Assembly (NCBI GenBank): GCA_026647025.1
Contig: JAPKHH010000004.1
Location: forward strand, 12,743 to 76,742
Source of the DNA: Giesbergeria sp.
Lineage (GTDB): Bacteria > Pseudomonadota > Gammaproteobacteria > Burkholderiales > Burkholderiaceae_C
Reading direction: 5' to 3'
Length of the DNA stretch: 64,000 nt
Positions 28,137 through 39,052 of the stretch are shown here, one piece after another. The notes under the pieces are model-generated. The model was not told the DNA's origin. It was given only the letters and a program-made list of their open reading frames with translations, and did not search any database. Made by a program: the position numbers and the translations under genes. How positions within the stretch are numbered: the first letter of the stretch is position 1; each line of letters opens with the position of its first letter.

Positions 28137-29147
28137 TCACAACGCAGGCGACAGCCGGGGGGAACGCACCAGAACGGGAATACCCAGCAGCACCGCCAGC
28201 AGCAGCGCCGCTGCCATGTTGTGGGCGAGAGCCGCCGCCAGTGGCAGGCCCAGCGTGACCAGTGCCACCCCCAGCCCGATCTGCGCTGCCAGCAAAGCCA
28301 AAAGCAAGAGTGCGGCAACGCGCAGCCCACCGCGCCAGGCGAAAGCGGCCAGCGGCAGCAGGACGGCCACCACCACCAGTCCGCCGACGCGGTGCAGTAC
28401 ATGCACCCACGCGCCGGCCGGGTGGTTCGGCAGCGCGGCGTTGGTCTGAGGCTCCGCCCAGGGATTGAAGGCGTCCCAGGAGCCAGCGCTCAGGTCGCAG
28501 CCCGTCAGTCCGGTGCAGCTCAGGCCGGCCTGTCCCGCGCTGACCAGCCCACCCAGCGCCACCTGCGCCAGCAAGAGCGCGGCGCCCAGCCAGGCCCAGC
28601 GGGCCAGGCGCGGTGGTGGACCACCGGGGATGGAATCCAGGCGGCCGGTCAGCGCCATCCGCACGCTCACCGCGAACATGACAAAGCCCCCCAGCAGGTT
28701 GCCCAGGGTGACGGCGGGAATGCGGGCATGGGCCGTCCAGCGCCCGAGCACCGCCAGAAAAAGCGCCAGCCCGAGCAAGCCCAGGGCCAGCCGCCCCTGG
28801 GGCCACAACACCGGCCGGGACGCCACCGCCGCCATCACCATGACCAGCACCAGCAAAAGCGCCGACGAGGCGATCACCCGGTGCGCCAGCCGCGCACCGG
28901 CGGTAGCGGCATCGGCTTGCAGGGGCGGCTCGCCCTGCTGTTGAGCGCGCCACTGCTGCCCGTAGCACTGGGGCCAGGGCTCGCAGCCCAGGCCTGCCTT
29001 GGACAGGCGGATATAGGCGCTCAGGCTGGTGATGGCCAGCACCAGCACGGCGCAGATCCAGGCCATGCGCCGCAGCAAAAGCACCCGCCGCTGGACCGGG
29101 TCCGCCGGAGAGGAAAGAAGAGAGGGAGGCATGGCAGGGAGGTTCAT
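28137..29147 (-). CDS. ctaA: Divergent heme A synthase (COX15/CtaA family)
   Basis: GLGCEPWPQC, AHR, GLSCTGLTGC, VLHR, AHN; ~8 TM; divergent from the oxidase operon. Confidence 0.78.
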   Translation of the reverse strand: MNLPAMPPSLLSSPADPVQRRVLLLRRMAWICAVLVLAITSLSAYIRLSKAGLGCEPWPQCYGQQWRAQQQGEPPLQADAATAGARLAHRVIASSALLLVLVMVMAAVASRPVLWPQGRLALGLLGLALFLAVLGRWTAHARIPAVTLGNLLGGFVMFAVSVRMALTGRLDSIPGGPPPRLARWAWLGAALLLAQVALGGLVSAGQAGLSCTGLTGCDLSAGSWDAFNPWAEPQTNAALPNHPAGAWVHVLHRVGGLVVVAVLLPLAAFAWRGGLRVAALLLLALLAAQIGLGVALVTLGLPLAAALAHNMAAALLLAVLLGIPVLVRSPRLSPAL

Positions 29148-29299: not shown

Positions 29300-29313
29300 T
29301 TGATCGAAATCAT
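29300..29313. promoter_or_regulatory. FNR/DNR/NnrR-type binding site
   Basis: TTGAT-CGAA-ATCAT, 9/10 match to TTGAT-N4-ATCAA, 68 bp (centre) upstream of the ATG at 29375. Confidence 0.65.
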
Positions 29314-29374: not shown

Positions 29375-29530
29375 ATGAGCCAGCACGACGACGAGAACGA
29401 AAAAGTTCCGCTTATGCAGCAGTTATTGGACAACCCGTTCCTCCTGCTGTTTTTGGGGGTGATGATTCCCATGATCGTATATTCGCTCTGGGGCGTTATC
29501 GACATTCTGACCATTCCGGTGGCGAAATAA
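29375..29530 (+). CDS. 51-aa single-TM protein, probable small subunit of the heme-copper enzyme
   Basis: SD AAGGAG; MSQHDDENEKVPLMQQLLDNPFLLLFLGVMIPMIVYSLWGVIDILTIPVAK; below the ORF-track cutoff. Confidence 0.8.
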   Translation: MSQHDDENEKVPLMQQLLDNPFLLLFLGVMIPMIVYSLWGVIDILTIPVAK

Positions 29531-29542
29531 GGGGTAACGCAC

Positions 29543-30082
29543 ATGAGCGCCATTCTTCCCCCCTCAGAGCGGTTGTGGTGGAAACACCCGCTGGACCGTC
29601 TCGAAGCCGTCTGGATTGTCATCGCCTTCATCTGGTGCATGGTCATGTTCTTCATGATGGTTTTCTGGCATGTCTACGGCAAGCAGAACCTTGCGACCGA
29701 GACCTACAAGACCACACCCGACAAGTTCACCGCCGCCACCCAGGCCATGGTGGACAAGTACACCGTCCGCACGGAAACCGACCAGAACATTCCGGTGGTG
29801 CGTCCGCCCGAGGGCAGCGACATCTACCTGATTGGCCGCCTGTGGAACTGGTGGCCGATTCTGGAACTGGAAAAAAACAAATCCTACAAGTTGCACCTGA
29901 CCTCGATGGACTACAACCACGGTTTCTCGCTTCAGCCCACCAACATCAACATCCAGGTGGTGCCAGGATATGAGCACGTGATCAAGGTCACGCCCAACGA
30001 GTCCGGCACTTTTTCCATCATCTGCAACGAATTTTGCGGAATCAACCACCACACCATGGTGGGCCGCATGTACGTGAAGTAG
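29543..30082 (+). CDS. Heme-copper oxidase subunit II (B-family type, one TM, CuA)
   Basis: DYNHGF and CNEFCGINHHTM CuA ligands; WNWWP. Confidence 0.92.
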   Translation: MSAILPPSERLWWKHPLDRLEAVWIVIAFIWCMVMFFMMVFWHVYGKQNLATETYKTTPDKFTAATQAMVDKYTVRTETDQNIPVVRPPEGSDIYLIGRLWNWWPILELEKNKSYKLHLTSMDYNHGFSLQPTNINIQVVPGYEHVIKVTPNESGTFSIICNEFCGINHHTMVGRMYVK

Positions 30083-30095
30083 CAGGAGCACCGAC

Positions 30096-31793
30096 ATGAC
30101 TGCAACCACTTACCGTACCTGCCCGCGCTCGGGCCTGCAATTCGAATCCCAGGCGGAAAAGCTGATGATCGCCAATGCCGTCGCCGCCGTCGTGGCGCTG
30201 CTGGTCGGCGGTCTCCTGGCCATTGGTGTCGTGCTGACCCGCTGGCCCGCCGTGCACTGGCTGGCGGCCGACACTTTCTACATGGTGCTCACGGCACACG
30301 GCATCGACATGCTGATCTTCTGGATCATCTTCTTCGAAGTCGCAGTGCTGTATTTCGCCTCGTCGACACTCTTGCGGTGCCGCATTGCCACACCCAAGAT
30401 CGCCTGGGCGGCCTTCGCACTGATGCTGATCGGCGCGGTGATGAACAACCTGACGGTGTTCCAGGGCGGCTCCAGCGTCATGATGACCTCGTACGTGCCC
30501 ATGATGGCGTCGTCGTGGTTCTACCTGGGCCTCATCCTGTTCGCCGTCGGCGCCCTGATTGCGTGTTTTGTGTTTTTCGGCACGCTGGTGGTCGCCAAGC
30601 GCGAAAAAACCTACGAAGGCTCGGTGCCCCTGGTGACGTTTGGCGCCATCACGGCCGCCATCATCGCGGTGTTCACCATTGCCTCCGGCGCGATCATCCT
30701 GATCCCCACCTACATGATGGCCATTGGCCTCATCAGTGAAGTCGATCCGTTGATCTACCGCACCATCTGGTGGGCTTTCGGGCACTCGTCGCAGCAAATC
30801 AACGTGGCAGCGCACATCTCGATCTGGTATGCCGTGGCGGCCATCGCCTTCGGTGCCAAGCCCATGTCCGAGCGCGTCAGCCGTGGCGCCTTCCTGCTGT
30901 ACATCCTGTTCCTGCAGCTTGCCAGTGCCCACCACCTGTTGGCCGACCCCGGCATCAGCACCGAGTGGAAAGTGGTGAACACCAGCTACTTCATGTACTT
31001 CGCCGTGCTGGCTTCGATGATCCATGCGCTGTCCATTCCGGGCGCCATGGAGGTGGCCCAGCGTGCCAAGGGCTACAACAAGGGCCTGTTTGAATGGCTG
31101 CGCAAGGCGCCCTGGGGCAACCCTGCTTTTTCGGGCGTGTTCATCTCGCTCGTGGGCTTCGGCTTCCTCGGTGGCATCTCCGGCGTGATGATGGGTACCG
31201 AACAGCTCAACCTGCTGATCCACAACACCATCTACGTGCCGGGCCACTTCCACGCCACCGTGGTGATTGGTACCACGCTGACCTTCATGGCCCTGACGTA
31301 CTTCCTGATTCCTGTGCTGTTCCGGCGCGAGATGATCTCGCCCGGTCTGGCCAAGATCCAGCCGTACCTCTTCGGCTTCTCGATGTACTTCTTCTGCCTG
31401 GTGATGATGGGCGCCGGTACGCTGGGCGTTTCCCGTCGGCACTGGGACATGGCCTTCAGTGGCGCGGCCCTGGCCTATGAATGGCCCGGCGCGGCGTATC
31501 TGATGATGGGTCTGGTCGGTATCGGGGGGATTGCCGCCATCGTGGGTGGCGGCATCTACATCTACGTCACGGTGGGCTCCATCTTGTGGGGCAAGAAGCT
31601 CGATACCGGCGTCGTGAGCCCCAAGTTCACCCCGGTGGGACGGGCTGCACCCACAGCCGCCGCACAGACCTATGGCTCTGCAGGGTTCGTGGCTCCTGGC
31701 ACCTTCGTGCTGGCCATGTTCTTCCTGGTGTCCTTCGTGCTGTACTACTTCATCAACTGGAAGTACCTGGGCCAGCTCTGGGGCCTGAGCTAA
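30096..31793 (+). CDS. Heme-copper superfamily subunit I with Tyr->Gln; probable eNOR-type nitric oxide reductase
   Basis: TAHG (helix II), GHSSQQIN (helix VI, H+4 = Q rather than Y), SAHHLL (helix VII), GHFHAT (helix X). Confidence 0.78.
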   Translation: MTATTYRTCPRSGLQFESQAEKLMIANAVAAVVALLVGGLLAIGVVLTRWPAVHWLAADTFYMVLTAHGIDMLIFWIIFFEVAVLYFASSTLLRCRIATPKIAWAAFALMLIGAVMNNLTVFQGGSSVMMTSYVPMMASSWFYLGLILFAVGALIACFVFFGTLVVAKREKTYEGSVPLVTFGAITAAIIAVFTIASGAIILIPTYMMAIGLISEVDPLIYRTIWWAFGHSSQQINVAAHISIWYAVAAIAFGAKPMSERVSRGAFLLYILFLQLASAHHLLADPGISTEWKVVNTSYFMYFAVLASMIHALSIPGAMEVAQRAKGYNKGLFEWLRKAPWGNPAFSGVFISLVGFGFLGGISGVMMGTEQLNLLIHNTIYVPGHFHATVVIGTTLTFMALTYFLIPVLFRREMISPGLAKIQPYLFGFSMYFFCLVMMGAGTLGVSRRHWDMAFSGAALAYEWPGAAYLMMGLVGIGGIAAIVGGGIYIYVTVGSILWGKKLDTGVVSPKFTPVGRAAPTAAAQTYGSAGFVAPGTFVLAMFFLVSFVLYYFINWKYLGQLWGLS

Positions 31794-31808
31794 GCAGGAC
31801 ACGGCGCC

Positions 31809-32708
31809 ATGCACACCACCACGATCCATCCCGCCGGGCGCAGTGCGGCACAGTGGACGCGCGACGTCATCTCGCTGTTCAAGCTGCGCATCGGTGTGCT
31901 GATCATGATTACGGCGCTCGTGGGCATGGCGGTCTCGCCAGGCCCGGCGCCCAGTCTGGTGCAGGTGCTCGTGCTTGCGCTGTCGGTGCTGATCGCGTCC
32001 GCCAGCGCAGGTGCGTTCAACCAGTATGTCGAGCACGAGAGCGATCGCCTGATGGCACGCACGCGCAAGCGGGCCTTTGCCACCGGGGCGCTGCCCCACC
32101 ATCCCGCCTGGCTGGCCCTGATGGCCGTGCTGCTGGCGGGGGCGGTGGCATCGGCCTGGCTGGTGCTCAACGCAGCGGCTGCGCTGTATGTGTTTCTGGG
32201 CGCCTTTTTCTACGGAGTGGTCTACACCCTGTGGCTCAAGCGGCGCACGGCGCTCAACATCGTGATCGGGGGGTTGGCAGGCAGCTTTGCCGTGCTGGCC
32301 GGGGCTGCCGCCATTGACCCGACTCTGGGCCCACTGCCCGTGCTGCTGGCCTTGGTGTTGTTCCTGTGGACGCCACCGCATTTCTGGAGCCTGGCAATCG
32401 CCAACAAGGCCGACTATGCGCAGGCGGGCGTGCCCATGCTGCCGGTCGTCGTGGGCACCGAGCGCGCTGCGCACATCGTTCTGGGCAGCACGGTGGCATT
32501 GTTCGTGGCTTCGCTGCTGCCGCTGGGATTTGGCGCCGGCCCGGTGTACGCCGTGGGCGCCCTGGTGGGGGGGCTGCACTTTGTGCACAAGTCGTGGCTT
32601 CTGGTAGCCCAGCCCAGCCGCGCCACCGCCATGGGTTCGTTCTTCGCTTCGCTGATCCAGCTCAGTTTGTTGCTGGTGGCGGCGTGCATCGACGCTTTCA
32701 TGCGCTAG
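31809..32708 (+). CDS. ctaB: Protoheme IX farnesyltransferase (heme O synthase)
   Basis: LFKLRI, FNQYVEHESDRLMARTRKR, YTLWLKRRT, FLWTPPHFWSL. Confidence 0.93.
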   Translation: MHTTTIHPAGRSAAQWTRDVISLFKLRIGVLIMITALVGMAVSPGPAPSLVQVLVLALSVLIASASAGAFNQYVEHESDRLMARTRKRAFATGALPHHPAWLALMAVLLAGAVASAWLVLNAAAALYVFLGAFFYGVVYTLWLKRRTALNIVIGGLAGSFAVLAGAAAIDPTLGPLPVLLALVLFLWTPPHFWSLAIANKADYAQAGVPMLPVVVGTERAAHIVLGSTVALFVASLLPLGFGAGPVYAVGALVGGLHFVHKSWLLVAQPSRATAMGSFFASLIQLSLLLVAACIDAFMR

Positions 32709-32728
32709 GGCCGGGAAGCCGGATTTTT

Positions 32729-33586
32729 ATGCACGCCACAGAACGTATTTCAGCACTGTCTGGGGCCGTGCTGTGTCTGTTCCTTGTTCTGTTGGCGCCA
32801 GCTGTCGTGCAGGCCTCGTCCCACGGGTCTGATCTGGGGTTGGACCGGGAGCAGGCACTGCGCACCAGCCAAGCTGCGTTGGGCCGCAAGATCGCTGACC
32901 ATACCCTGCTGGACCGTGAAGGTCGACCGGTCCGGCTTTCTTCCTACCGGGGCAAACCGCTGCTGGTCAGTTTCATCTACACCGGGTGCTTCCAGGTGTG
33001 CCCGACCACCACGCGGTCGTTGCAGGAAACGGTCGAGGGCTTGCAAAAGACCTTTGGCACCAACCAGTTCAACGTGGTGAGCATCGGTTTCAACCAGCCC
33101 GATGATTCGCCCCAGGCGCTCAAGGCGTTTGCCGCCCAATACCGCATCCATCAGCCCAGCTGGGAATTCTTGAGCCCCTCCATGGCTACCGTGGGGCCGC
33201 TGGCCCGTGATTTTGGGTTTGTCTACGAAGCCACTCCGGCGGGCTTCGACCATGTGCTGCAGGTGTCGCTGGTCGATGCGCAGGGGCGCATCGTGCGGCA
33301 GGTCTACGGGGAGAGCATTCGACCGGGCGATATCGGCGAACCCCTGAAACTGCTGCTCAACGGCACGCCGGTTGAGCCTTCCCTGGCGTTGGAAAGTCTG
33401 ATGGACCGTGTGCGCATCCTGTGCACGGTGTACGACCCCAAGACGGGCCAGTACCGGGTGGACTACACCCTGCCTATCCAGATTGCTGGGGGCATCACCT
33501 TTCTGATCGCCATGCTGGTGTTCTTTCTCAACGAGTGGCGCTCTGTACGGCGCAGTGCCCGCAACAAGGAGGCGCGCCGCGCCTGA
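32729..33586 (+). CDS. SCO-family copper chaperone with C-terminal TM extension
   Basis: FIYTGCFQVCP (CxxxC), FDH; signal peptide; C-terminal TM. Confidence 0.88.
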   Translation: MHATERISALSGAVLCLFLVLLAPAVVQASSHGSDLGLDREQALRTSQAALGRKIADHTLLDREGRPVRLSSYRGKPLLVSFIYTGCFQVCPTTTRSLQETVEGLQKTFGTNQFNVVSIGFNQPDDSPQALKAFAAQYRIHQPSWEFLSPSMATVGPLARDFGFVYEATPAGFDHVLQVSLVDAQGRIVRQVYGESIRPGDIGEPLKLLLNGTPVEPSLALESLMDRVRILCTVYDPKTGQYRVDYTLPIQIAGGITFLIAMLVFFLNEWRSVRRSARNKEARRA

Positions 33587-33601
33587 CGCCCGCCCGTTTT
33601 C

Positions 33602-35188
33602 ATGCCCTTGCCTGGTTCAGCCTTTGTTTCCAAAGGATCTCCTGTTTCGCTGACGCTTCCGCCGGTTCCCCGCAGTGCGGCCCTCTACCGGGCCGTGGAA
33701 CATTCCTTTGACGTACCGTTCGGGGCGGCGCTGAACCCGCTCAAACATCTGGGGGCCCTCGGTTTCCTGTTTTTCTGGCTGCTGGTCGTCACGGGGGTGG
33801 TGCTCTACATCGTGCTCGACACCTCGGTCGGGGGCGCGTACCAATCCATCAACGATCTGGCCCAGGTGCCCTGGATGCTGGGCGTCATGCTGCGCGGCGT
33901 GCACCGCTACGCCGCCGATGGCTTTGTGATCGTCATGTTCGCCCATCTCCTGCGGGAATGGATGCTGGGCCGGTTCAAGGGTTTTCGCCGTGTTCCCTGG
34001 CTGACAGGTGTGCCCCTGGTTGCCCTGGCCTTTGTCAGTGCGATTGGAGGCTTCTGGCTCAACTGGGACCGCCTGGGCCAGTTTTCGGCTGTGTCCACGG
34101 CCGAGTGGCTCGATACCTTGCCGTTCCTGGCGTCGCCCCTGGCGCGCAATTTTCTGGGCGGCGTCAGTCTGAATGCGCGGCTGTTCACCCTGTTCGTTTT
34201 CGTGCATCTGGGTGTGCCGCTGCTGATGGTGTTTGCCCTGTGGTTTCATATCCAGCGCATCAGCCTCGCACGGGTTTTTCCGCCGCGTGCCTTGGCCTGG
34301 GGCACGCTGGCCATGCTGCTGTTGCTTTCACTGGTCCTTCCGGTGCGCAGCCAGGGGCCGGCCGACCTGATGTCGGTGCCCGTTTCCTTGTCACTGGACT
34401 GGTTCTTGTTGTTCATCCACCCCTTGATCGACGCTACTTCGGCGCAAGCGGTGTGGGCGCTCGTGGCCATGGTTTTCGCCGGATTGATACTGTTGCCGTT
34501 CACCCCCGTGCGCGCCGAACCCGTGGCCGTGGTGAACCCCGACCATTGCAGCGGCTGCAGCCGCTGTTTTGCCGACTGTCCCTATTCCGCCATTACGATG
34601 GTGCCCCACCCCAACGGGCGGCGGGGCATGCAACTGGCCGAAGTGCGTGCCGACCTGTGCGCCAGCTGTGGCATCTGTGTCGGCTCCTGCCCGTCTTCCA
34701 CGCCGTTTCGCAGTACCGAGGTACTGCACACCGGCATCGACATGCCGCAGTGGCCCATCGACGACTTGCGCGCCCGTTTGTTGCAGGGCCTGGCTGCCAT
34801 GCCGGGGCCGCGCAGGCTGGTGGTTTTTGGCTGCGATCAGGGCCAGCGCAGCCGCATGGGCGCGCCGGATGTCCTGCATCTGGGCATGGTGTGTGCAGGC
34901 ATGCTGCCGCCTTCCTTTGTCGAGTACGCATTGCGCGGAGGTGCCGACGGCGTGCTCATCAACGGCTGCCGCGAGGGGGGCTGTGAATTCCGCCTGGGCC
35001 AACGCTGGACACAGCAGCGCCTGAACGGTGAGCGCGAGCCGCATCTGCGCACCTCCGTGCCGGCCGAACGCTGGCGTGTCGTCTGGACCGACCCGGGCGA
35101 TGAAAGCCAGCTGGTATCCGCCCTTGAAGACATGCGCACGCATTGCGCACCCGGCGCACCTCACCCATTTTTGGAGAACACCCCATGA
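33602..35188 (+). CDS. Cytochrome b / 2x[4Fe-4S] ferredoxin / MvhD-FlpD-like [2Fe-2S] fusion protein
   Basis: GVHRYAADGFVIVMFAH and FVHLG...WFH (four heme b His); LDWF; CSGCSRCFADCP; CASCGICVGSCP; FGC...CAGM...GCREGGCEF. Start codon uncertain. Confidence 0.85.
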   Translation: MPLPGSAFVSKGSPVSLTLPPVPRSAALYRAVEHSFDVPFGAALNPLKHLGALGFLFFWLLVVTGVVLYIVLDTSVGGAYQSINDLAQVPWMLGVMLRGVHRYAADGFVIVMFAHLLREWMLGRFKGFRRVPWLTGVPLVALAFVSAIGGFWLNWDRLGQFSAVSTAEWLDTLPFLASPLARNFLGGVSLNARLFTLFVFVHLGVPLLMVFALWFHIQRISLARVFPPRALAWGTLAMLLLLSLVLPVRSQGPADLMSVPVSLSLDWFLLFIHPLIDATSAQAVWALVAMVFAGLILLPFTPVRAEPVAVVNPDHCSGCSRCFADCPYSAITMVPHPNGRRGMQLAEVRADLCASCGICVGSCPSSTPFRSTEVLHTGIDMPQWPIDDLRARLLQGLAAMPGPRRLVVFGCDQGQRSRMGAPDVLHLGMVCAGMLPPSFVEYALRGGADGVLINGCREGGCEFRLGQRWTQQRLNGEREPHLRTSVPAERWRVVWTDPGDESQLVSALEDMRTHCAPGAPHPFLENTP

Positions 35189-35688
35189 ACCGAGCCCTCA
35201 ACTGGACAGGGCAAGCCCTGCTCTATGGCAGTTTTGCCCTGGTAGTCGGCGTCTTCTCGCGCTGGCCCAGCTACCATCCTCTGGCGCCGAACGAGGCGCA
35301 GATCAAGGTCAGCTTCATTCACCATGGTGCGCGGATTGCCGAATGCCGCCCCTACACGGCCGAGGAACTGTCCAAACTGGCGCCGAACATGCGCGCGCCC
35401 ATGAAATGCGAACGAGAGCGCTCGCCGGTGCGCATCGAGGTCGAGGTCGATGGCGTGTCCGTCTATGCCCACACGGCCACGCCCTCGGGCTTCTCGCGCG
35501 ACGGTGCCTCCACGGTGTACCAGCGACTCAATGTTCCCTCGGGTGAACATCGCATCACTGTGCGCATGAAAGACAACATGAAGTCGCCCGACTTCCCGTA
35601 TGTGCACGACTCCACCGTCACACTGCAACCCGCGCAGGTCATGGTGATCGACTTCAACCCGGACAAAGGGGAGATCGTTCTGCTATGA
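35185..35688 (+). CDS. Hypothetical membrane-anchored protein with a probable periplasmic beta domain and a Cys pair
   Basis: ATGA-coupled to both neighbours; one N-terminal TM; ECRPY...MKCERERSP. Confidence 0.78.
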   Translation: MNRALNWTGQALLYGSFALVVGVFSRWPSYHPLAPNEAQIKVSFIHHGARIAECRPYTAEELSKLAPNMRAPMKCERERSPVRIEVEVDGVSVYAHTATPSGFSRDGASTVYQRLNVPSGEHRITVRMKDNMKSPDFPYVHDSTVTLQPAQVMVIDFNPDKGEIVLL

Positions 35689-37136
35689 GTGCACTGCCCT
35701 CTCACATGCTTGGCGTGCATGCCGCCGCAGGCCGCCCGTTGCCCGCAGCGATGCCGGGGCTGGACTATGAGCTCACGGTGCCGCAGGACGCCCGGCAGGC
35801 CCTGGCGCGTGGATGGCTCTGGCTGGGTCTTTTGGCGCTGGTGGGTTCGGGACTGTTTTCCATCCTGCTGGTGCTCTCGCGCACGCCGTACGTCAACCAG
35901 TGGTTGCCTGCGGCCAATTTTTTCCAGGTCTCGCTGGTGCTGCATGTCGATTTGTCGGTGCTGGTGTGGTTCGTGGCCCAAGGGGGCATGCTCTGGAGCA
36001 TTCACGGCACCCGGCGCGGCACGCACTGGGGCTGGCTGGCGCTGGCGGTGGCCGCAGTCGGCACATTGGCCATGGCCTTGGCGCCGTTTCTGAACCGGGG
36101 CGATCCCGTCATGGCCAACTACATCCCGGTGCTGGATTCGCCGCTGTTTCTGGGCGGCCTGGTCGTGTTCGGCGCGGGCACGGCTCTGCTGGTACTGCGC
36201 AGCCTGCTGGTCGCGCCCCGGCTGGGACTGGAGTACGACGGCCGCGGTGCGCTGGATTTTGGTCTGAGCAGCGCAGCCATTGCCACGGCCGTCGGTCTGC
36301 TGGCCTTTGCATGGTCCTATGCCGTGCTGCCGACCGCGCTGCATGGCAAGGCCTACTACGAAATCCTGTTCTGGGGCGGTGGCCACGCCTTGCAGTTCAC
36401 CTGGACCTTGCTCATGCTGGTGGGCTGGCTCTGGCTGGCCAGCGCCTGTGGTGCGCGCGTGCCCCTGAGCCCGCGCGTGGTGGTGCTCATGTTCGCGCTG
36501 GCCCTGGTGGGCGTCTTCATCACGCCCTATGCCTACCTGGCGCATGACATCACCTCGGTGGAGCACCGCAATCTGCTGACCTGGGCCATGCGGGCCGGTG
36601 GTGGACCGGCCATCGTGCCGGTGGGCCTGGCCGTGGTCTATGCCATCGCCACCACGCGGCTGGACAGCGACACCCTGCGCCCGCTGCGTGCCGCGCTGCT
36701 GGCATCGGTGCTGTTGTTTGCCGCTGGCGGGGTGATCGGCATCTTTATCCAGGGGAGCAATGTGCGCATTCCCGCGCACTACCATGGCTGCATTGTCGGG
36801 GTCACGCTGGCGCTCATGGGCGTGGTCTACAAGACCTTGCCGGCGCTGGGCTACCGTGCGCCCCAGGGGCGCCTGGCCACCTACCAGCCCTGGCTGTACG
36901 GTGCGGGTCAACTCATGCACATCATCGGGCTGGTCTGGTCGGGTGGCTACGGTGTGCAGCGCAAGGTGGCCGGTGCCGAGCAGGTGCTGCGCAGCACGGC
37001 CGAGGTGGCCGGCATGGGCCTGATGGGCCTGGGCGGGCTGATCGCCATCATCGGCGGACTGCTGTTCGTGGTGGTGGTGGTCCAGGCCATGCGACATACG
37101 CCCGCTGCGGCGGGCTCCAACGGGACGACACGATGA
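35685..37136 (+). CDS. Heme-copper subunit I paralogue lacking the helix VII His-His (CuB/FeB) pair
   Basis: LHVD (helix II), FWGGGHALQF (helix VI), PAHYHG (helix X); ~12 TM; no HH dipeptide in the protein. Confidence 0.75.
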   Translation: MSALPSHMLGVHAAAGRPLPAAMPGLDYELTVPQDARQALARGWLWLGLLALVGSGLFSILLVLSRTPYVNQWLPAANFFQVSLVLHVDLSVLVWFVAQGGMLWSIHGTRRGTHWGWLALAVAAVGTLAMALAPFLNRGDPVMANYIPVLDSPLFLGGLVVFGAGTALLVLRSLLVAPRLGLEYDGRGALDFGLSSAAIATAVGLLAFAWSYAVLPTALHGKAYYEILFWGGGHALQFTWTLLMLVGWLWLASACGARVPLSPRVVVLMFALALVGVFITPYAYLAHDITSVEHRNLLTWAMRAGGGPAIVPVGLAVVYAIATTRLDSDTLRPLRAALLASVLLFAAGGVIGIFIQGSNVRIPAHYHGCIVGVTLALMGVVYKTLPALGYRAPQGRLATYQPWLYGAGQLMHIIGLVWSGGYGVQRKVAGAEQVLRSTAEVAGMGLMGLGGLIAIIGGLLFVVVVVQAMRHTPAAAGSNGTTR

Positions 37137-39052
37137 TCAAACGATTCCAGGCCCTGCTGCAGTGGGTTTTCTTGCGTGTCGAGGGCTTGTTCAATGCGGC
37201 CTTTGGCGACCGCATCAATCCTTTCTACCACCTGGGGGCCATCACCTTCTTCCTGTTCTGGGTGGTTGGCGCCAGTGGCCTGTACCTGTACATCTTTTTC
37301 GAAACCGGTCTGTCTGTTGCGTATTCCTCGGTGGTGGCACTGACCGAAAACCAGTGGTTCGCTGGCGGCATCATGCGCAGCGTGCACCGCTACGCGTCCG
37401 ACGCCATGGTGCTGACCATGGTGCTGCACATGCTGCGCTACTTTGCCTTCAATCTGTACCACGGCTTTCGCTGGTTCTCATGGATCACCGGGGTGATGCT
37501 GATCTGGATGGTGTATGCCACAGGGATCAACGGCTACATGCTGCCCTGGGACCAACTGGCGCAGTTCGTCACCGTGACCAGTTTCGAGTGGCTTGACTGG
37601 CTGCCCAGTTTTGGCGGCACCTTGATGCGCAACTTCATCTACTCCTCGGCCGTGGGCGATCGCTTCTTCACCCTGCTGTCGTTCATGCACCTGGGCCTGC
37701 CCCTGGTGGTGCTGATGGTGATGTGGATCCACGTGCAGCGCGTTCCCAAGGCACGCACCACGCCGCCGCGTCCCATCGTCATCGGCCTGCTGCTGACCAT
37801 GCTGGTGCTGTCACTGGTCCTGCCGGTGCACAGCCAGGGGGGTATTAGCAACCTGGCACAGGCCGTGACGAATGTCGAACTCGACTGGTTCTACCTGGCC
37901 ATCTTCCCACTGCTGACCGAATGGCCGCTGGGCCGGGTCTGGGCGCTGGTGGTGGGCGGCTCGCTGGTGCTGGCGCTGCTGCCCTGGTGGCCCCCGCGCT
38001 TTCGCCGGGGAGCACACACCAGCCACCAGGTGGTGGTGCGCGGCGTGGATGGCGCGAGCGCGGAATTCAGCGTGCGCGAGGACGAAACCATTCTGGATGC
38101 CGGTCTGCGCGAAGGCCTGGCCTTGCCGTATGAATGCCGCAATGGGGGGTGCGGCCTGTGTCTGTGCAGCGTGGAGCACGGCAACATCGACCACCGGCCC
38201 TACCAGCGCAGTGCGTTGCCCGATGCGCAGAAGGCCCAGGGCAAGGCGCTGATGTGCTGCGCTGTGCCGCGTGGCGACGTCGTGATCGACGTGGAGGGTT
38301 TTACCGGTGCCGCCGCCCAGGCCGCCGAGGTGCACACTGCCACCGTGGCGCAACTGGAACGCCTGGCTGACGATGTCATGCGTGTGCTGCTGCAACTGCC
38401 CGAGGGCAAGACGCTGGACTTTGCTGCAGGCCAGTACATCGACATCCTGCTGGACGACGGCCAGCGCCGTGCGTTCTCGTTTGCCAACCGGCCCCATGCC
38501 AGCAGCCAGATCGAGCTGCACATTCGCCTCGTGCCCGGCGGGCGCTTTACGACCCATGTGTTCGAGGCGATGCGGGTGGGCGACGTCCTGCGTTTCGAAG
38601 GCCCGCGCGGCAGCTTCACGCTGCGCGAAAGCACGCACCCCATTTTGTTCGTGGCCGGTGCCACCGGTTTTGCACCGATCAAGAGCATTGTGGAAGATGC
38701 CTTCGAGCGGGGCGTGCAGCGCCCCATGCGCCTGTACTGGGGTGTGCGCCAGCGCAAGGACCTGTACCTGCTGGCGCTGTGCGAGCAATGGGCGCGGGAC
38801 CACACCAACTTCACCGTGGTGCCGGTCGTGTCAGAGCCCGCCGAGGGCGACGGCTGGACGGGCCGCACGGGACTGGTGCACGAGGCCATGCTGGCCGACT
38901 TTCCTGATCTCAGCGGCAACGAGGTTTACCTGTGCGGCTCTGTGAAGATGGTGGAAACTGCCGTCCCGGCCTTCATTGCCCAGGGCCTGGGTGAGGATGC
39001 CTGCTTCTCGGACGCATTCCTGATGGCAGCGCCAGCACAGACACAACAGTAG
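37133..39052 (+). CDS. Cytochrome b / [2Fe-2S] ferredoxin / FAD-NAD(P) reductase fusion protein
   Basis: SVHRYASDAMVLTMVLH; FMHLG...WIH; ELDWFY; CRNGGCGLC...C; RAFSFAN; GGRFT; AGATGFAP; YLCGS. Confidence 0.88.
   Translation: MIKRFQALLQWVFLRVEGLFNAAFGDRINPFYHLGAITFFLFWVVGASGLYLYIFFETGLSVAYSSVVALTENQWFAGGIMRSVHRYASDAMVLTMVLHMLRYFAFNLYHGFRWFSWITGVMLIWMVYATGINGYMLPWDQLAQFVTVTSFEWLDWLPSFGGTLMRNFIYSSAVGDRFFTLLSFMHLGLPLVVLMVMWIHVQRVPKARTTPPRPIVIGLLLTMLVLSLVLPVHSQGGISNLAQAVTNVELDWFYLAIFPLLTEWPLGRVWALVVGGSLVLALLPWWPPRFRRGAHTSHQVVVRGVDGASAEFSVREDETILDAGLREGLALPYECRNGGCGLCLCSVEHGNIDHRPYQRSALPDAQKAQGKALMCCAVPRGDVVIDVEGFTGAAAQAAEVHTATVAQLERLADDVMRVLLQLPEGKTLDFAAGQYIDILLDDGQRRAFSFANRPHASSQIELHIRLVPGGRFTTHVFEAMRVGDVLRFEGPRGSFTLRESTHPILFVAGATGFAPIKSIVEDAFERGVQRPMRLYWGVRQRKDLYLLALCEQWARDHTNFTVVPVVSEPAEGDGWTGRTGLVHEAMLADFPDLSGNEVYLCGSVKMVETAVPAFIAQGLGEDACFSDAFLMAAPAQTQQ

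What the first reader, a model, noticed from the sequence alone, without database searches (positions are those of the whole stretch)
37133..39052. Cytochrome b fused to a [2Fe-2S]-FAD-NAD(P) reductase
Seen: four heme-b His in cyt b helices B and D, and LDWF where bc1 cyt b has PEWY. About six TM are followed by CRNGGCGLC...C and an intact FNR-type module (RAFS, GATGFAP, YLCGS) like oxygenase reductases. Inference: with N-in topology the reductase is cytoplasmic, giving a single-chain NAD(P)H-to-membrane-heme or quinone oxidoreductase unrelated to complex I or NDH-2.
Basis: partly seen in the sequence, partly recalled or inferred. Interest (0 to 1): 0.75.

Follow-up and report, generated by a model that had tools for sequence, protein, structure and literature searches.

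The report
Cytochrome b–NAD(P)H reductase fusion beside eNOR
This is a real, conserved membrane protein that joins a two-haem cytochrome b to a cytoplasmic NAD(P)H-reading flavin/iron-sulfur reductase; in its bacterial order it is found almost only in genomes that carry the eNOR-type nitric oxide reductase, so it is probably that system's link to NAD(P)H rather than a general respiratory enzyme.

Summary
ORF 37133-39052 (639 aa) has a bc-type cytochrome b with six membrane helices. All four haem histidines are invariant, and LDWF aligns with the bc1 PEWY motif. A ~12-residue tether follows, then an intact [2Fe-2S]-FAD-NAD(P) reductase of the BenC/NqrF/Fre type, placed in the cytoplasm.

It is not a free-standing enzyme. 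It is the last, translationally coupled gene of an FNR-box operon: small TM protein, CuA subunit, eNOR subunit I, haem O synthase, SCO1, cytochrome b-2x[4Fe-4S]-MvhD, 1-TM protein, HCO paralogue without the HH pair, then this gene.

In an even sample of 401 genomes of the order, 49 had eNOR, 49 had the fusion and 48 had both. Gene order varies, but the set is kept. Outside the order, 48 of 49 eNOR genomes carry the same special cytochrome b, with Fe-S/MvhD ends as far as checked. The Fer2-FNR end is therefore probably a lineage-specific swap.

Most likely function (about 0.45): NAD(P)H to FAD to [2Fe-2S] to haem b(n) to haem b(p), then to quinone or the eNOR/HCO partner. The reverse, bifurcating quinol:NAD+ reading in a 2026 preprint on the orthologous Ferrigenium operon is not excluded. 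No biochemistry exists for either.

The parts
37133..39052 (+). Whole gene: cytochrome b-[2Fe-2S]-FAD-NAD(P) fusion, 639 aa (P0001)
   Evidence: 77 orthologues from 80 loci
37133..38017 (+). bc-type cytochrome b part, residues 1-295: helices A-F plus cd and ef surface helices. It has no Cys, hence no haem ci
37385..37429 (+). Helix B haem ligands H85 and H99
   Evidence: aligned with b6 H86/H100; 78/78 invariant
37688..37732 (+). Helix D haem ligands H186 and H200. P205 stands where bc1 has the Qi-site His
37880..37891 (+). LDWF, the counterpart of the Qo-site PEWY motif. D251 and W252 are invariant
   Evidence: hhalign against own bc1 cytochrome b
38045..38269 (+). Plant-type [2Fe-2S] ferredoxin domain (C335, C340, C343, C375), tethered about 12 residues after helix F
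38339..38617 (+). FAD-binding domain (RAFS 446-449)
38648..38962 (+). NAD(P)-binding domain (GATGFAP 509-515, CGS 601-603)
35685..37136 (+). Partner: HCO subunit-I paralogue (P0121). It keeps the helix II, VI and X His but lacks the helix VII HH pair; SVEH 291-294 is conserved
   Evidence: syntenic
35185..35688 (+). Partner: 1-TM protein with a periplasmic domain and two conserved Cys. It is fused to the C-terminus of cytb-Fer4-FlpD in other lineages
33602..35188 (+). Partner: paralogous cytochrome b fused to 2x[4Fe-4S] and an MvhD/FlpD domain (P0123)
32726..33586 (+). SCO1/SenC copper chaperone
31809..32708 (+). Haem O synthase
   Evidence: TIGR01473, 260 bits, above cut-off
30096..31793 (+). 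eNOR-type HCO subunit I (P0122; GHSSQQ, no cross-link Tyr)
   Evidence: about 70% identical to the Accumulibacter protein that Murali et al. 2024 class as eNOR
29543..30082 (+). CuA subunit II
29377..29532 (+). 51-aa TM protein, first gene of the operon
29300..29313 (+). FNR/DNR-type box TTGATCGAAATCAT, 64 nt before the first start codon
   Evidence: box at a conserved distance in 41 of 58 loci; background 0.048 per 500 bp
28137..29147 (-). Divergent CtaA (haem A synthase), the only copy found in the genome

Best explanation
The gene encodes the NAD(P)H-linked subunit of a membrane redox module dedicated to the eNOR-type nitric oxide reductase. Shown: a six-helix, two-haem, bc-type cytochrome b. 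It has no Qi-site His and no haem ci, and no Rieske protein is encoded in the cluster. It keeps an invariant Qo-like pocket (cd helix WDQ, ef-loop DW). It carries, on the cytoplasmic side and on a ~12-residue tether, a BenC/NqrF/Fre-type [2Fe-2S]-FAD-NAD(P) reductase. The gene is co-inherited and translationally coupled with a second cytochrome b (ending in 2x[4Fe-4S]+MvhD), a 1-TM periplasmic protein and a CuB-less HCO paralogue, behind an FNR-type box. Inferred: the two cytochromes b pair as bc-type cytochromes b do. Electrons run NAD(P)H -> FAD -> [2Fe-2S] -> haem b(n) -> haem b(p). They leave on the periplasmic half of the membrane, either to quinone in the DW pocket or directly to the haems/CuA of the HCO partner(s). 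This would give NO reduction an NAD(P)H-fed supply that does not depend on bc1 and cytochrome c, using the same logic as NqrF in Na+-NQR or Fre-MsrQ.
For: Domains, ligands and motifs are intact and invariant. The closest sequence and fold relatives of the soluble half are all NAD(P)H-oxidising donors: GcoB, BenC, Fre, T4moF, CarAd, NqrF. That half is about 46-53% identical to a soluble Fer2-FNR reductase; 381 of 401 genomes of the order had a match to the query, and the non-fusion hits listed were all of this kind. It therefore looks like a recruited donor module. Topology puts it in the cytoplasm. Synteny with eNOR and the three partners is kept in 80 loci through at least four gene orders. 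Genome-level co-occurrence is 48 both, 1 and 1 single, 351 neither. The last four genes have ATGA overlaps. Outside the order the same cytochrome b accompanies eNOR in 48 of 49 genomes; in the one f94 operon checked by Pfam there are two paralogous cytb-FeS-MvhD genes side by side, and other f94 genomes also show two adjacent hits. This supports a two-cytochrome-b unit. The 1-TM partner is fused to the cytb-FeS protein in other lineages. There is an FNR box. The orthologous proteins were detected in the Ferrigenium proteome under denitrifying conditions (preprint). The NAD(P)H-to-haem direction is thermodynamically downhill (inference).
Against: eNOR has CuA and works with artificial periplasmic donors as a two-subunit enzyme (Murali 2024), so it does not strictly need this module. 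The invariant Qo-like pocket is more than a simple electron wire needs and fits quinol chemistry. The AF2 domain packing is not confident (pTM 0.44), so the cluster-to-haem distance is unknown. The only published opinion proposes the opposite direction. NADH versus NADPH preference is unresolved, because residues 540-542 vary.
Confidence: 0.45

Rival explanations
1. Reverse, bifurcating quinol:NAD(P)+ oxidoreductase. Quinol is oxidised in the DW (Qo-like) pocket. One electron goes to the very high-potential eNOR branch. The other goes through haem b(p), haem b(n), [2Fe-2S] and FAD to NAD(P)+, so that NO reduction pays for NAD(P)H synthesis.
For: The Qo-type elements are invariant in all paralogues. 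Association with eNOR is strict. The orthologous operon is upregulated in an autotrophic Fe(II) oxidiser that needs reverse electron flow, and its authors propose this function. Similar proposals exist for anammox Rieske/cytochrome b complexes with NAD(P) subunits (abstract). The partner's 2x[4Fe-4S]+MvhD module resembles the low-potential end of HdrA.
Against: No Rieske protein or other obvious one-electron acceptor lies beside the pocket. Most hosts are heterotrophic denitrifiers with no evident need for reverse flow. BenC/Fre/NqrF-type modules are known as NAD(P)H oxidisers (own knowledge). By inference, the electron would have to climb about 400 mV and also cross the membrane against the potential.
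Confidence: 0.2
2. Free-standing NAD(P)H:quinone oxidoreductase. The chain alone passes electrons from NAD(P)H to quinone, and the link to eNOR is only regulatory.
For: All cofactor sites needed are in one chain, together with a quinone-type pocket. In two loci the gene lies without its partners, next to nirS and NnrS.
Against: In the order sample the fusion occurs in one eNOR-lacking genome only, although the others presumably all have quinone pools. It is translationally coupled to the HCO paralogue. The partners travel with it through rearrangements. Quinone reduction on the periplasmic side would waste proton-motive force (inference).
Confidence: 0.1
3. Maturation factor. The fusion supplies electrons for cofactor biogenesis of eNOR, for example to the O2-dependent haem A synthase CtaA, as ferredoxin plus ferredoxin reductase do for Cox15 in mitochondria. 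Alternatively it keeps assembly intermediates reduced, with the HCO paralogue acting as a scaffold.
For: The operon holds haem O synthase and SCO1, and the genome's only CtaA lies divergently next to it. eNOR uses a modified haem A. The requirement of eukaryotic haem A synthase for ferredoxin and its reductase is own knowledge. The preprint calls one partner a 'scaffold protein'.
Against: Genomes of the order without eNOR lack the fusion, although many presumably make haem A for aa3 oxidases (not checked). A conserved Qo-like pocket and a second cytochrome b are unexpected for a chaperone. CtaA is absent from the Ferrigenium operon and from many of the loci.
Confidence: 0.1
4. Electron donor to a separate enzyme. 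The CuB-less HCO paralogue is the catalytic subunit of an NAD(P)H-driven reductase of its own (NO, O2 or another small oxidant). The two cytochromes b serve as its electron-entry subunits in place of a subunit II.
For: The paralogue keeps both haem sites, one active-site His and a conserved SVEH, but has no subunit II of its own. Three Accumulibacter-related loci lack eNOR within 10 kb; two of them carry the full quartet and the third lacks the paralogue too.
Against: Genome-level co-occurrence with eNOR is nearly complete. The L091-type clusters have eNOR plus cytb-FeS but no paralogue. No metal-site chemistry can be read from the sequence.
Confidence: 0.1

Closest known systems
Cytochrome b of bc1/b6f complexes
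   Same: The membrane domain is homologous through helices A-F. The four haem His are in register, the cd helix WDQ is kept, and the ef-loop motif aligns with PEWY.
   Different: No Rieske or cytochrome c1/f partner is encoded in the cluster. The Qi-site His is replaced (P205), there is no haem ci Cys, and helices G/H are missing. The chain ends in a cytoplasmic NAD(P)H reductase.
NqrF of Na+-NQR, and the BenC/GcoB/CarAd class of Fer2-FAD-NAD reductases
   Same: The soluble module has the same order and fold ([2Fe-2S] then FAD then NAD). It is membrane-anchored and feeds a membrane redox chain.
   Different: The anchor is a two-haem cytochrome b, not a single helix. The NCBIfam nqrF score is 99 against a cut-off of 295. 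The partners are HCO-type proteins, not Nqr subunits.
eNOR-operon cytochrome b fusions of Ferrigenium straubiae (bioRxiv 10.64898/2026.01.22.701106)
   Same: The domain description is the same (cytochrome b, Fe-S, FAD, NADH). A second cytochrome b-FeS gene and the same eNOR/haem O synthase/SCO1 context are present, and the proteins were seen in the proteome.
   Different: That work is annotation only and proposes quinol:NAD+ direction in an autotroph. Here the host is a heterotroph-type complete denitrifier that also has cNOR.
Anammox Rieske/cytochrome b complexes with NAD(P)-binding Fe-S subunits; 'subfamily H' large cytochrome b proteins of Dibrova et al.
   Same: A bc-type cytochrome b is wired to a cytoplasmic NAD(P)-linked oxidoreductase, and the function is unresolved.
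   Different: Those are separate subunits and include a Rieske protein. Whether subfamily H contains this family could not be checked, because no supplement is held.
NADPH oxidase/ferric reductase family and the Fre-MsrQ pair
   Same: The same logic applies: a cytoplasmic FNR-type NAD(P)H module passes electrons through two stacked b haems to the outer face (own knowledge).
   Different: The membrane domain is unrelated (Pfam finds no ferric reductase domain). Here there is an added [2Fe-2S] step and a Qo-like pocket.

Membership tests
Cytochrome b N-terminal domain (PF00033; bc1/b6f cytochrome b) | Four His in helices B and D that ligate haems b(p) and b(n) | tested here: met
   H85/H99/H186/H200 align with b6 H86/H100/H187/H202 and are invariant in 78 sequences. 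Pfam score is 70.5 bits against a cut-off of 27.2.
bc1/b6f complex (as a functional complex III) | Qo-site PEWY motif in the ef loop | tested here: inconclusive
   LDWF aligns with P(E/V)WY. D and W are invariant, but the Pro is lost and Glu is replaced by Asp. Quinol binding was not tested.
bc1/b6f complex (as a functional complex III) | Rieske Fe-S partner and cytochrome c1/f encoded with it | tested here: not met
   No Rieske or c-type cytochrome gene lies in the operon 29377-39052. The genome's bc1 is elsewhere, on contig C113.
bc1/b6f complex (as a functional complex III) | Qi site (His five residues after the helix D ligand) or haem ci Cys | tested here: not met
   P205 (invariant) stands at the Qi His position. 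There is no Cys in residues 1-300.
Fer2-FAD-NAD reductases (BenC/Fre/NqrF superfamily) | Cys4 [2Fe-2S] motif, RxYS FAD motif, GxxGxxP and CG NAD motifs | tested here: met
   C335/C340/C343/C375, RAFS 446-449, GATGFAP 509-515 and CGS 601-603 are all conserved. PDB hits are 5ogx at 2e-45 and 1krh at 3e-43, with Foldseek probability 1.0.
BenC, MmoC, AntC, NqrF (NCBIfam equivalogs) | Score above the curated equivalog cut-off | tested here: not met
   BenC 215 against 430, MmoC 212 against 500, AntC 202 against 402, nqrF 99 against 295. No oxygenase or nqr genes are nearby.
eNOR-cluster cytochrome b fusions (as noted in the Ferrigenium preprint) | Cytochrome b + Fe-S + FAD + NAD architecture encoded with eNOR I/II, haem O synthase, SCO1 and a second cytochrome b-FeS gene | tested here: met
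   Operon content, synteny in 80 loci, co-occurrence of 48/49 each way, and the description.
NAD(P)H oxidising activity / electron direction | NAD(P)H-dependent haem or quinone reduction | not testable with these tools
   Needs enzyme assays.

The most novel reading that the evidence does not exclude
The module is a Rieske-less, Qi-less bc-type machine that performs Qo-type electron bifurcation. Quinol oxidised in the invariant DW pocket gives one electron to eNOR (NO/N2O, very high potential). The other goes through the b haems, Fe-S clusters and FAD into cytoplasmic NAD(P)+ (and, through the MvhD-type partner, perhaps ferredoxin). NO respiration would then directly make low-potential reductant.
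Probability: 0.17. Interest if true: 0.9.

Novelty: new variant of a known kind. Interest (0 to 1): 0.62.

Why it matters
eNOR is the NO reductase of Accumulibacter, Gallionellaceae and many other wastewater and sediment denitrifiers, so it affects N2O release. This analysis shows that in sampled Pseudomonadota eNOR nearly always comes with a special Rieske-less cytochrome b whose haem chain ends in cytoplasmic redox modules. In one whole order, one of these modules reads NAD(P)H. If electrons flow from NAD(P)H, these bacteria have an NAD(P)H-fed membrane NO reductase system that bypasses bc1 and cytochrome c. If they flow the other way, this would be a new bifurcating way to make NAD(P)H from quinol. 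Either result would change how electron budgets and energy yields of denitrification are modelled. It would also add a new branch to the bc-complex family. The genes exist in cultivable isolates (Comamonas granuli, Simplicispira, Zeimonas, Castellaniella), so the question can be tested.

Tried and rejected
1. Assembly or annotation artefact: rejected. The same 630-650 aa ORF occurs in isolates and in thousands of database entries.

2. A cytochrome b + flavodoxin + FAD + NAD (CysJ-like) protein, P0152, sits in an eNOR-like operon. I first took it as an independent second recruitment of an NADPH module. It is a singleton among 5.8 billion proteins. Its first 873 nt are 100% identical to the neighbouring cytb-Fer4-FlpD gene, and its nearest relatives are ordinary CysJ. 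It may be a very recent duplication or a chimeric assembly, so I give it no weight.

3. AF2 was run to see how the ferredoxin domain docks. pTM is 0.44 and the tether is disordered, so no distance claim can be made.

5. Intrinsic terminator after the gene: none found.

6. Tree of the cytochrome b domains, to place the FNR type relative to the Fer4 type: the base is unresolved. I claim only that the Fer4-type partners from the same loci form one supported clade.

7. Whether Dibrova's 'subfamily H' equals this family: no supplement is held.

8. NADH versus NADPH preference from the residues after strand beta-2 (R/K539 conserved, 540-542 variable): not decidable.
Full report
**1. The observation**

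The ORF at 37133-39052 (+) is open and encodes 639 residues. Its ATG overlaps the stop of the upstream gene as ATGA. Pfam finds four domains above their curated cut-offs: Cytochrome_B (26-202), Fer2 (305-379), FAD_binding_6 (403-495) and NAD_binding_1 (506-610).

- **Haem ligands.** Against solved structures, residues 26-207 align with cytochrome b6 at E 2.5e-21. H85, H99, H186 and H200 fall on the b6 ligands H86, H100, H187 and H202.
- **Extent of the cytochrome b homology.** A family profile aligns with bc1 cytochromes b as far as residue ~294, that is through helix E, the ef loop and helix F.
- **PEWY counterpart.** Against this genome's own bc1 cytochrome b (contig C113), hhalign (probability 98.5%) places LDWF 250-253 exactly on the P(E/V)WY motif. 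It places the invariant P205 where bc1 has the Qi-site histidine.
- **Conservation.** In 78 orthologues the four His, D251/W252, the four cluster Cys (335, 340, 343, 375), RxFS, GxTGFAP and CGS are invariant or nearly so.
- **No haem ci.** The cytochrome b part contains no cysteine.
- **Topology.** The AF2 model (pLDDT 74.6) shows six membrane helices plus the cd and ef surface helices, then a disordered tether (287-295) and the beta-rich reductase. Loop charges follow the positive-inside rule for N-in and C-in. The reductase is therefore cytoplasmic.
- **Fold relatives.** Foldseek's best matches are BenC, GcoB, CarAd reductase, NqrF and Fre.

**2. The surroundings**

The gene is the last of nine co-oriented genes (29377-39052). 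In order they are:

- a 51-aa TM protein;
- a CuA subunit II;
- an HCO subunit I with GHSSQQ in place of the cross-link tyrosine;
- haem O synthase;
- SCO1;
- a paralogous cytochrome b fused to 2x[4Fe-4S] and an MvhD/FlpD domain;
- a 1-TM protein;
- a very divergent HCO subunit-I paralogue;
- the fusion itself.

The last four genes overlap by ATGA. A CtaA gene, the only one found in the genome, lies divergently upstream.

The subunit I is about 70% identical to the Accumulibacter protein in syntenic loci. Murali et al. 2024 class the Accumulibacter and Gallionellaceae enzymes as eNOR, a family shown biochemically to reduce NO in Rhodothermus.

An FNR/DNR-type box (TTGATCGAAATCAT, 29300-29313) lies 64 nt before the first start codon. 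A box with at most one mismatch sits at a conserved distance in 41 of 58 related loci, against a background of 0.048 per 500 bp. Camejo et al. 2019 reported an FNR motif before the same operon in Accumulibacter, then called ba3.

The host genome (3.7 Mb, 221 contigs) is that of a complete denitrifier. It has nirS, cNOR, clade I nosZ, NnrS, bc1, aa3 and cbb3.

**3. Linkage to eNOR**

*Synteny.* Eighty loci encoding relatives were fetched. Wherever enough flank exists, the same set is present: eNOR II and I, SCO1, cytb-Fer4-FlpD, the 1-TM protein, the HCO paralogue and the fusion. It appears in at least four arrangements:

- colinear, as in the window;
- the fusion moved to just after SCO1;
- the fusion divergent from the rest, across the FNR-box region;
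- the paralogue on the opposite strand.

A set that is kept while its order is shuffled argues for a functional unit.

*Exceptions.* Three Accumulibacter-related loci lack eNOR within 10 kb. Two of them carry the full quartet and the third lacks the paralogue as well. In two other loci the fusion lies alone, next to nirS and NnrS.

*Genome level.* In an even sample of 401 genomes of the order:

| | Genomes |
|---|---|
| eNOR subunit I (E <= 1e-100) | 49 |
| Full-length fusion | 49 |
| Both | 48 |
| eNOR only | 1 (fragmented assembly) |
| Fusion only | 1 (fragmented assembly) |
| Neither | 351 |

*Origin of the reductase half.* In the same search 381 of 401 genomes had a match. The non-fusion hits listed were all soluble proteins of about 340-360 aa, about 50% identical to residues ~292-635. 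The reductase half therefore appears to be a recruited copy of a widespread soluble Fer2-FNR reductase.

*Breadth of the family.* At 50% clustering the full-length fusion is essentially one cluster, so the family is narrow.

**4. The wider family**

In a phylum-level sample, 49 further genomes outside the order carry eNOR at 48-66% identity. Of these, 48 carry a homologue of this particular cytochrome b (45-53% identical over helices A-F), usually next to eNOR. Their open frames are about 490-605 aa (one of 673 aa). That is the length of the Fe-S/MvhD type, not the FNR type.

In lineage f94 the one operon checked by Pfam reads eNOR II, eNOR I, SCO1, cytb-Fer4-FlpD, a second cytb-Fer4-FlpD, 1-TM protein, HCO paralogue, CtaA. 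Two cytochromes b side by side therefore recur; other f94 genomes also show two adjacent hits. In the Burkholderiales-type order, one of the two cytochromes b carries Fer2-FAD-NAD where f94 has Fe-S/MvhD.

In other lineages the cytb-Fer4-FlpD protein is extended by a TM helix and a domain homologous to the 1-TM protein (BLASTP 2e-31). This fusion indicates that the two proteins interact, and it places that domain in the periplasm.

The HCO paralogue aligns with eNOR I at 99.4% probability. It keeps the helix II, VI and X histidines but not the helix VII HH pair, and it has a conserved SVEH instead.

**5. Mechanism**

Shown:

- cofactor sites for NAD(P)H, FAD, [2Fe-2S] and two b haems, in a geometry where the cluster domain is held at the cytoplasmic end of helix F;
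- a conserved periplasm-side pocket of Qo type;
- no Qi histidine, and no Rieske gene in the cluster;
- dedicated partners.

Inferred: the direction of electron flow. I favour NAD(P)H -> FAD -> [2Fe-2S] -> haem b(n) -> haem b(p) -> quinone or HCO partner (0.45), for three reasons:

- every characterised relative of the soluble module is an NAD(P)H oxidiser, and NqrF does exactly this job for a membrane complex;
- the path is downhill;
- most carriers are heterotrophic denitrifiers.

An NAD(P)H-fed NO reductase system would resemble Hmp or NorVW in logic, and this genome already has cNOR for respiration.

The main rival (0.2) is the reverse, bifurcating quinol:NAD+ reaction proposed for the orthologous Ferrigenium operon. 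The invariant Qo-like pocket and the HdrA-like partner module speak for it. The lack of any Rieske-like acceptor and the energetic climb speak against it.

The other rivals are weaker (about 0.1 each):

- a free-standing NAD(P)H:quinone oxidoreductase, contradicted by the co-occurrence data;
- a maturation role, for example electrons for haem A synthase, weakened because genomes of the order without eNOR lack the fusion;
- a separate NAD(P)H-driven enzyme built on the CuB-less paralogue.

**6. Comparison with known systems, and novelty**

The membrane part is a true homologue of bc1/b6f cytochrome b. The protein nevertheless fails the tests for a complex III subunit: no Rieske partner, no Qi site and no helices G/H. 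The soluble part belongs to the Fer2-FNR superfamily but falls below every NCBIfam equivalog cut-off (BenC, MmoC, AntC, NqrF).

In public records the family is named only 'FAD-binding oxidoreductase' or 'cytochrome b N-terminal domain-containing protein'. [quoted passage not shown] The 2026 Ferrigenium preprint describes the same two fusions in an eNOR operon and reports the proteins in a proteome.

The architecture itself is therefore not a discovery. This analysis adds the following:

- the near one-to-one genome-level linkage to eNOR;
- the phylum-wide association of eNOR with this Rieske-less cytochrome b;
- the likely module swap that created the NAD(P)H version;
- the fusion evidence for the 1-TM partner;
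- the FNR-box conservation;
- the residue-level tests of the Qo and Qi sites.

No member has been studied biochemically. I rate it a new variant of a known kind (a cytochrome b-anchored dehydrogenase), with interest 0.62.

**7. Limits**

The AF2 inter-domain geometry is unreliable. The CysJ-type fusion P0152 may be an assembly chimera and was given no weight. Electron direction, acceptor and nucleotide preference all need experiments.

Noticed in passing
window 35685-37136: HCO subunit-I paralogue. It keeps H87, H234, H365 and H367 but lacks the helix VII HH pair. A conserved SVEH (291-294) could give a His/Glu site. It has no subunit II of its own.
   Followed up: partly
window 33602-35188 and 35185-35688; P0141, P0149: The cytb-2x[4Fe-4S]-MvhD protein and the 1-TM protein are one polypeptide in other lineages (BLASTP 2e-31). 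The periplasmic domain carries a conserved EC...x20...C(P/E)RER pair of Cys.
   Followed up: partly
window 29300-29313: FNR/DNR-type box TTGATCGAAATCAT before the operon. It is conserved in position in 41 of 58 related loci.
   Followed up: yes
L090 3911-4783 and 9935-10807: A perfect 873-bp repeat makes the first 269 residues of a cytochrome b-CysJ-like protein (P0152) identical to the neighbouring cytb-Fer4-FlpD. P0152 is the only protein of this architecture found, so it is either a recent duplication or a chimeric assembly.
   Followed up: yes
L102 8651-11886 (genome G466, lineage f94): Small-genome Pseudomonadota have two adjacent cytb-Fer4-FlpD paralogues in the eNOR operon, where this window has one plus the FNR fusion.
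   Followed up: partly
L054 5564-13116; L058 7338-11310: In two loci the fusion gene lies without its partners, directly next to nirS (cd1 nitrite reductase). In L054 it is followed by NnrS.
   Followed up: partly
genome contig C141:13991-14971: A soluble Fer2-FAD-NAD protein is 46% identical to residues 312-633 of the fusion. The non-fusion hits listed from the order sample (381 of 401 genomes had a match) were similar ~340-360 aa proteins. Its own function was not looked into.
   Followed up: no
window 28137-29147 (-): The CtaA next to the operon is the only haem A synthase homologue that tblastn finds in the genome, so it presumably also serves the aa3 oxidase on contig C145.
   Followed up: partly
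L021-L028, between the HCO paralogue and the fusion (for example L025 7557-8288): Rhodocyclaceae-type loci carry about 1.8 kb of extra DNA here. In L025 one ORF is an OmpW-family outer membrane protein, and the other ORFs gave no Pfam match.
   Followed up: partly
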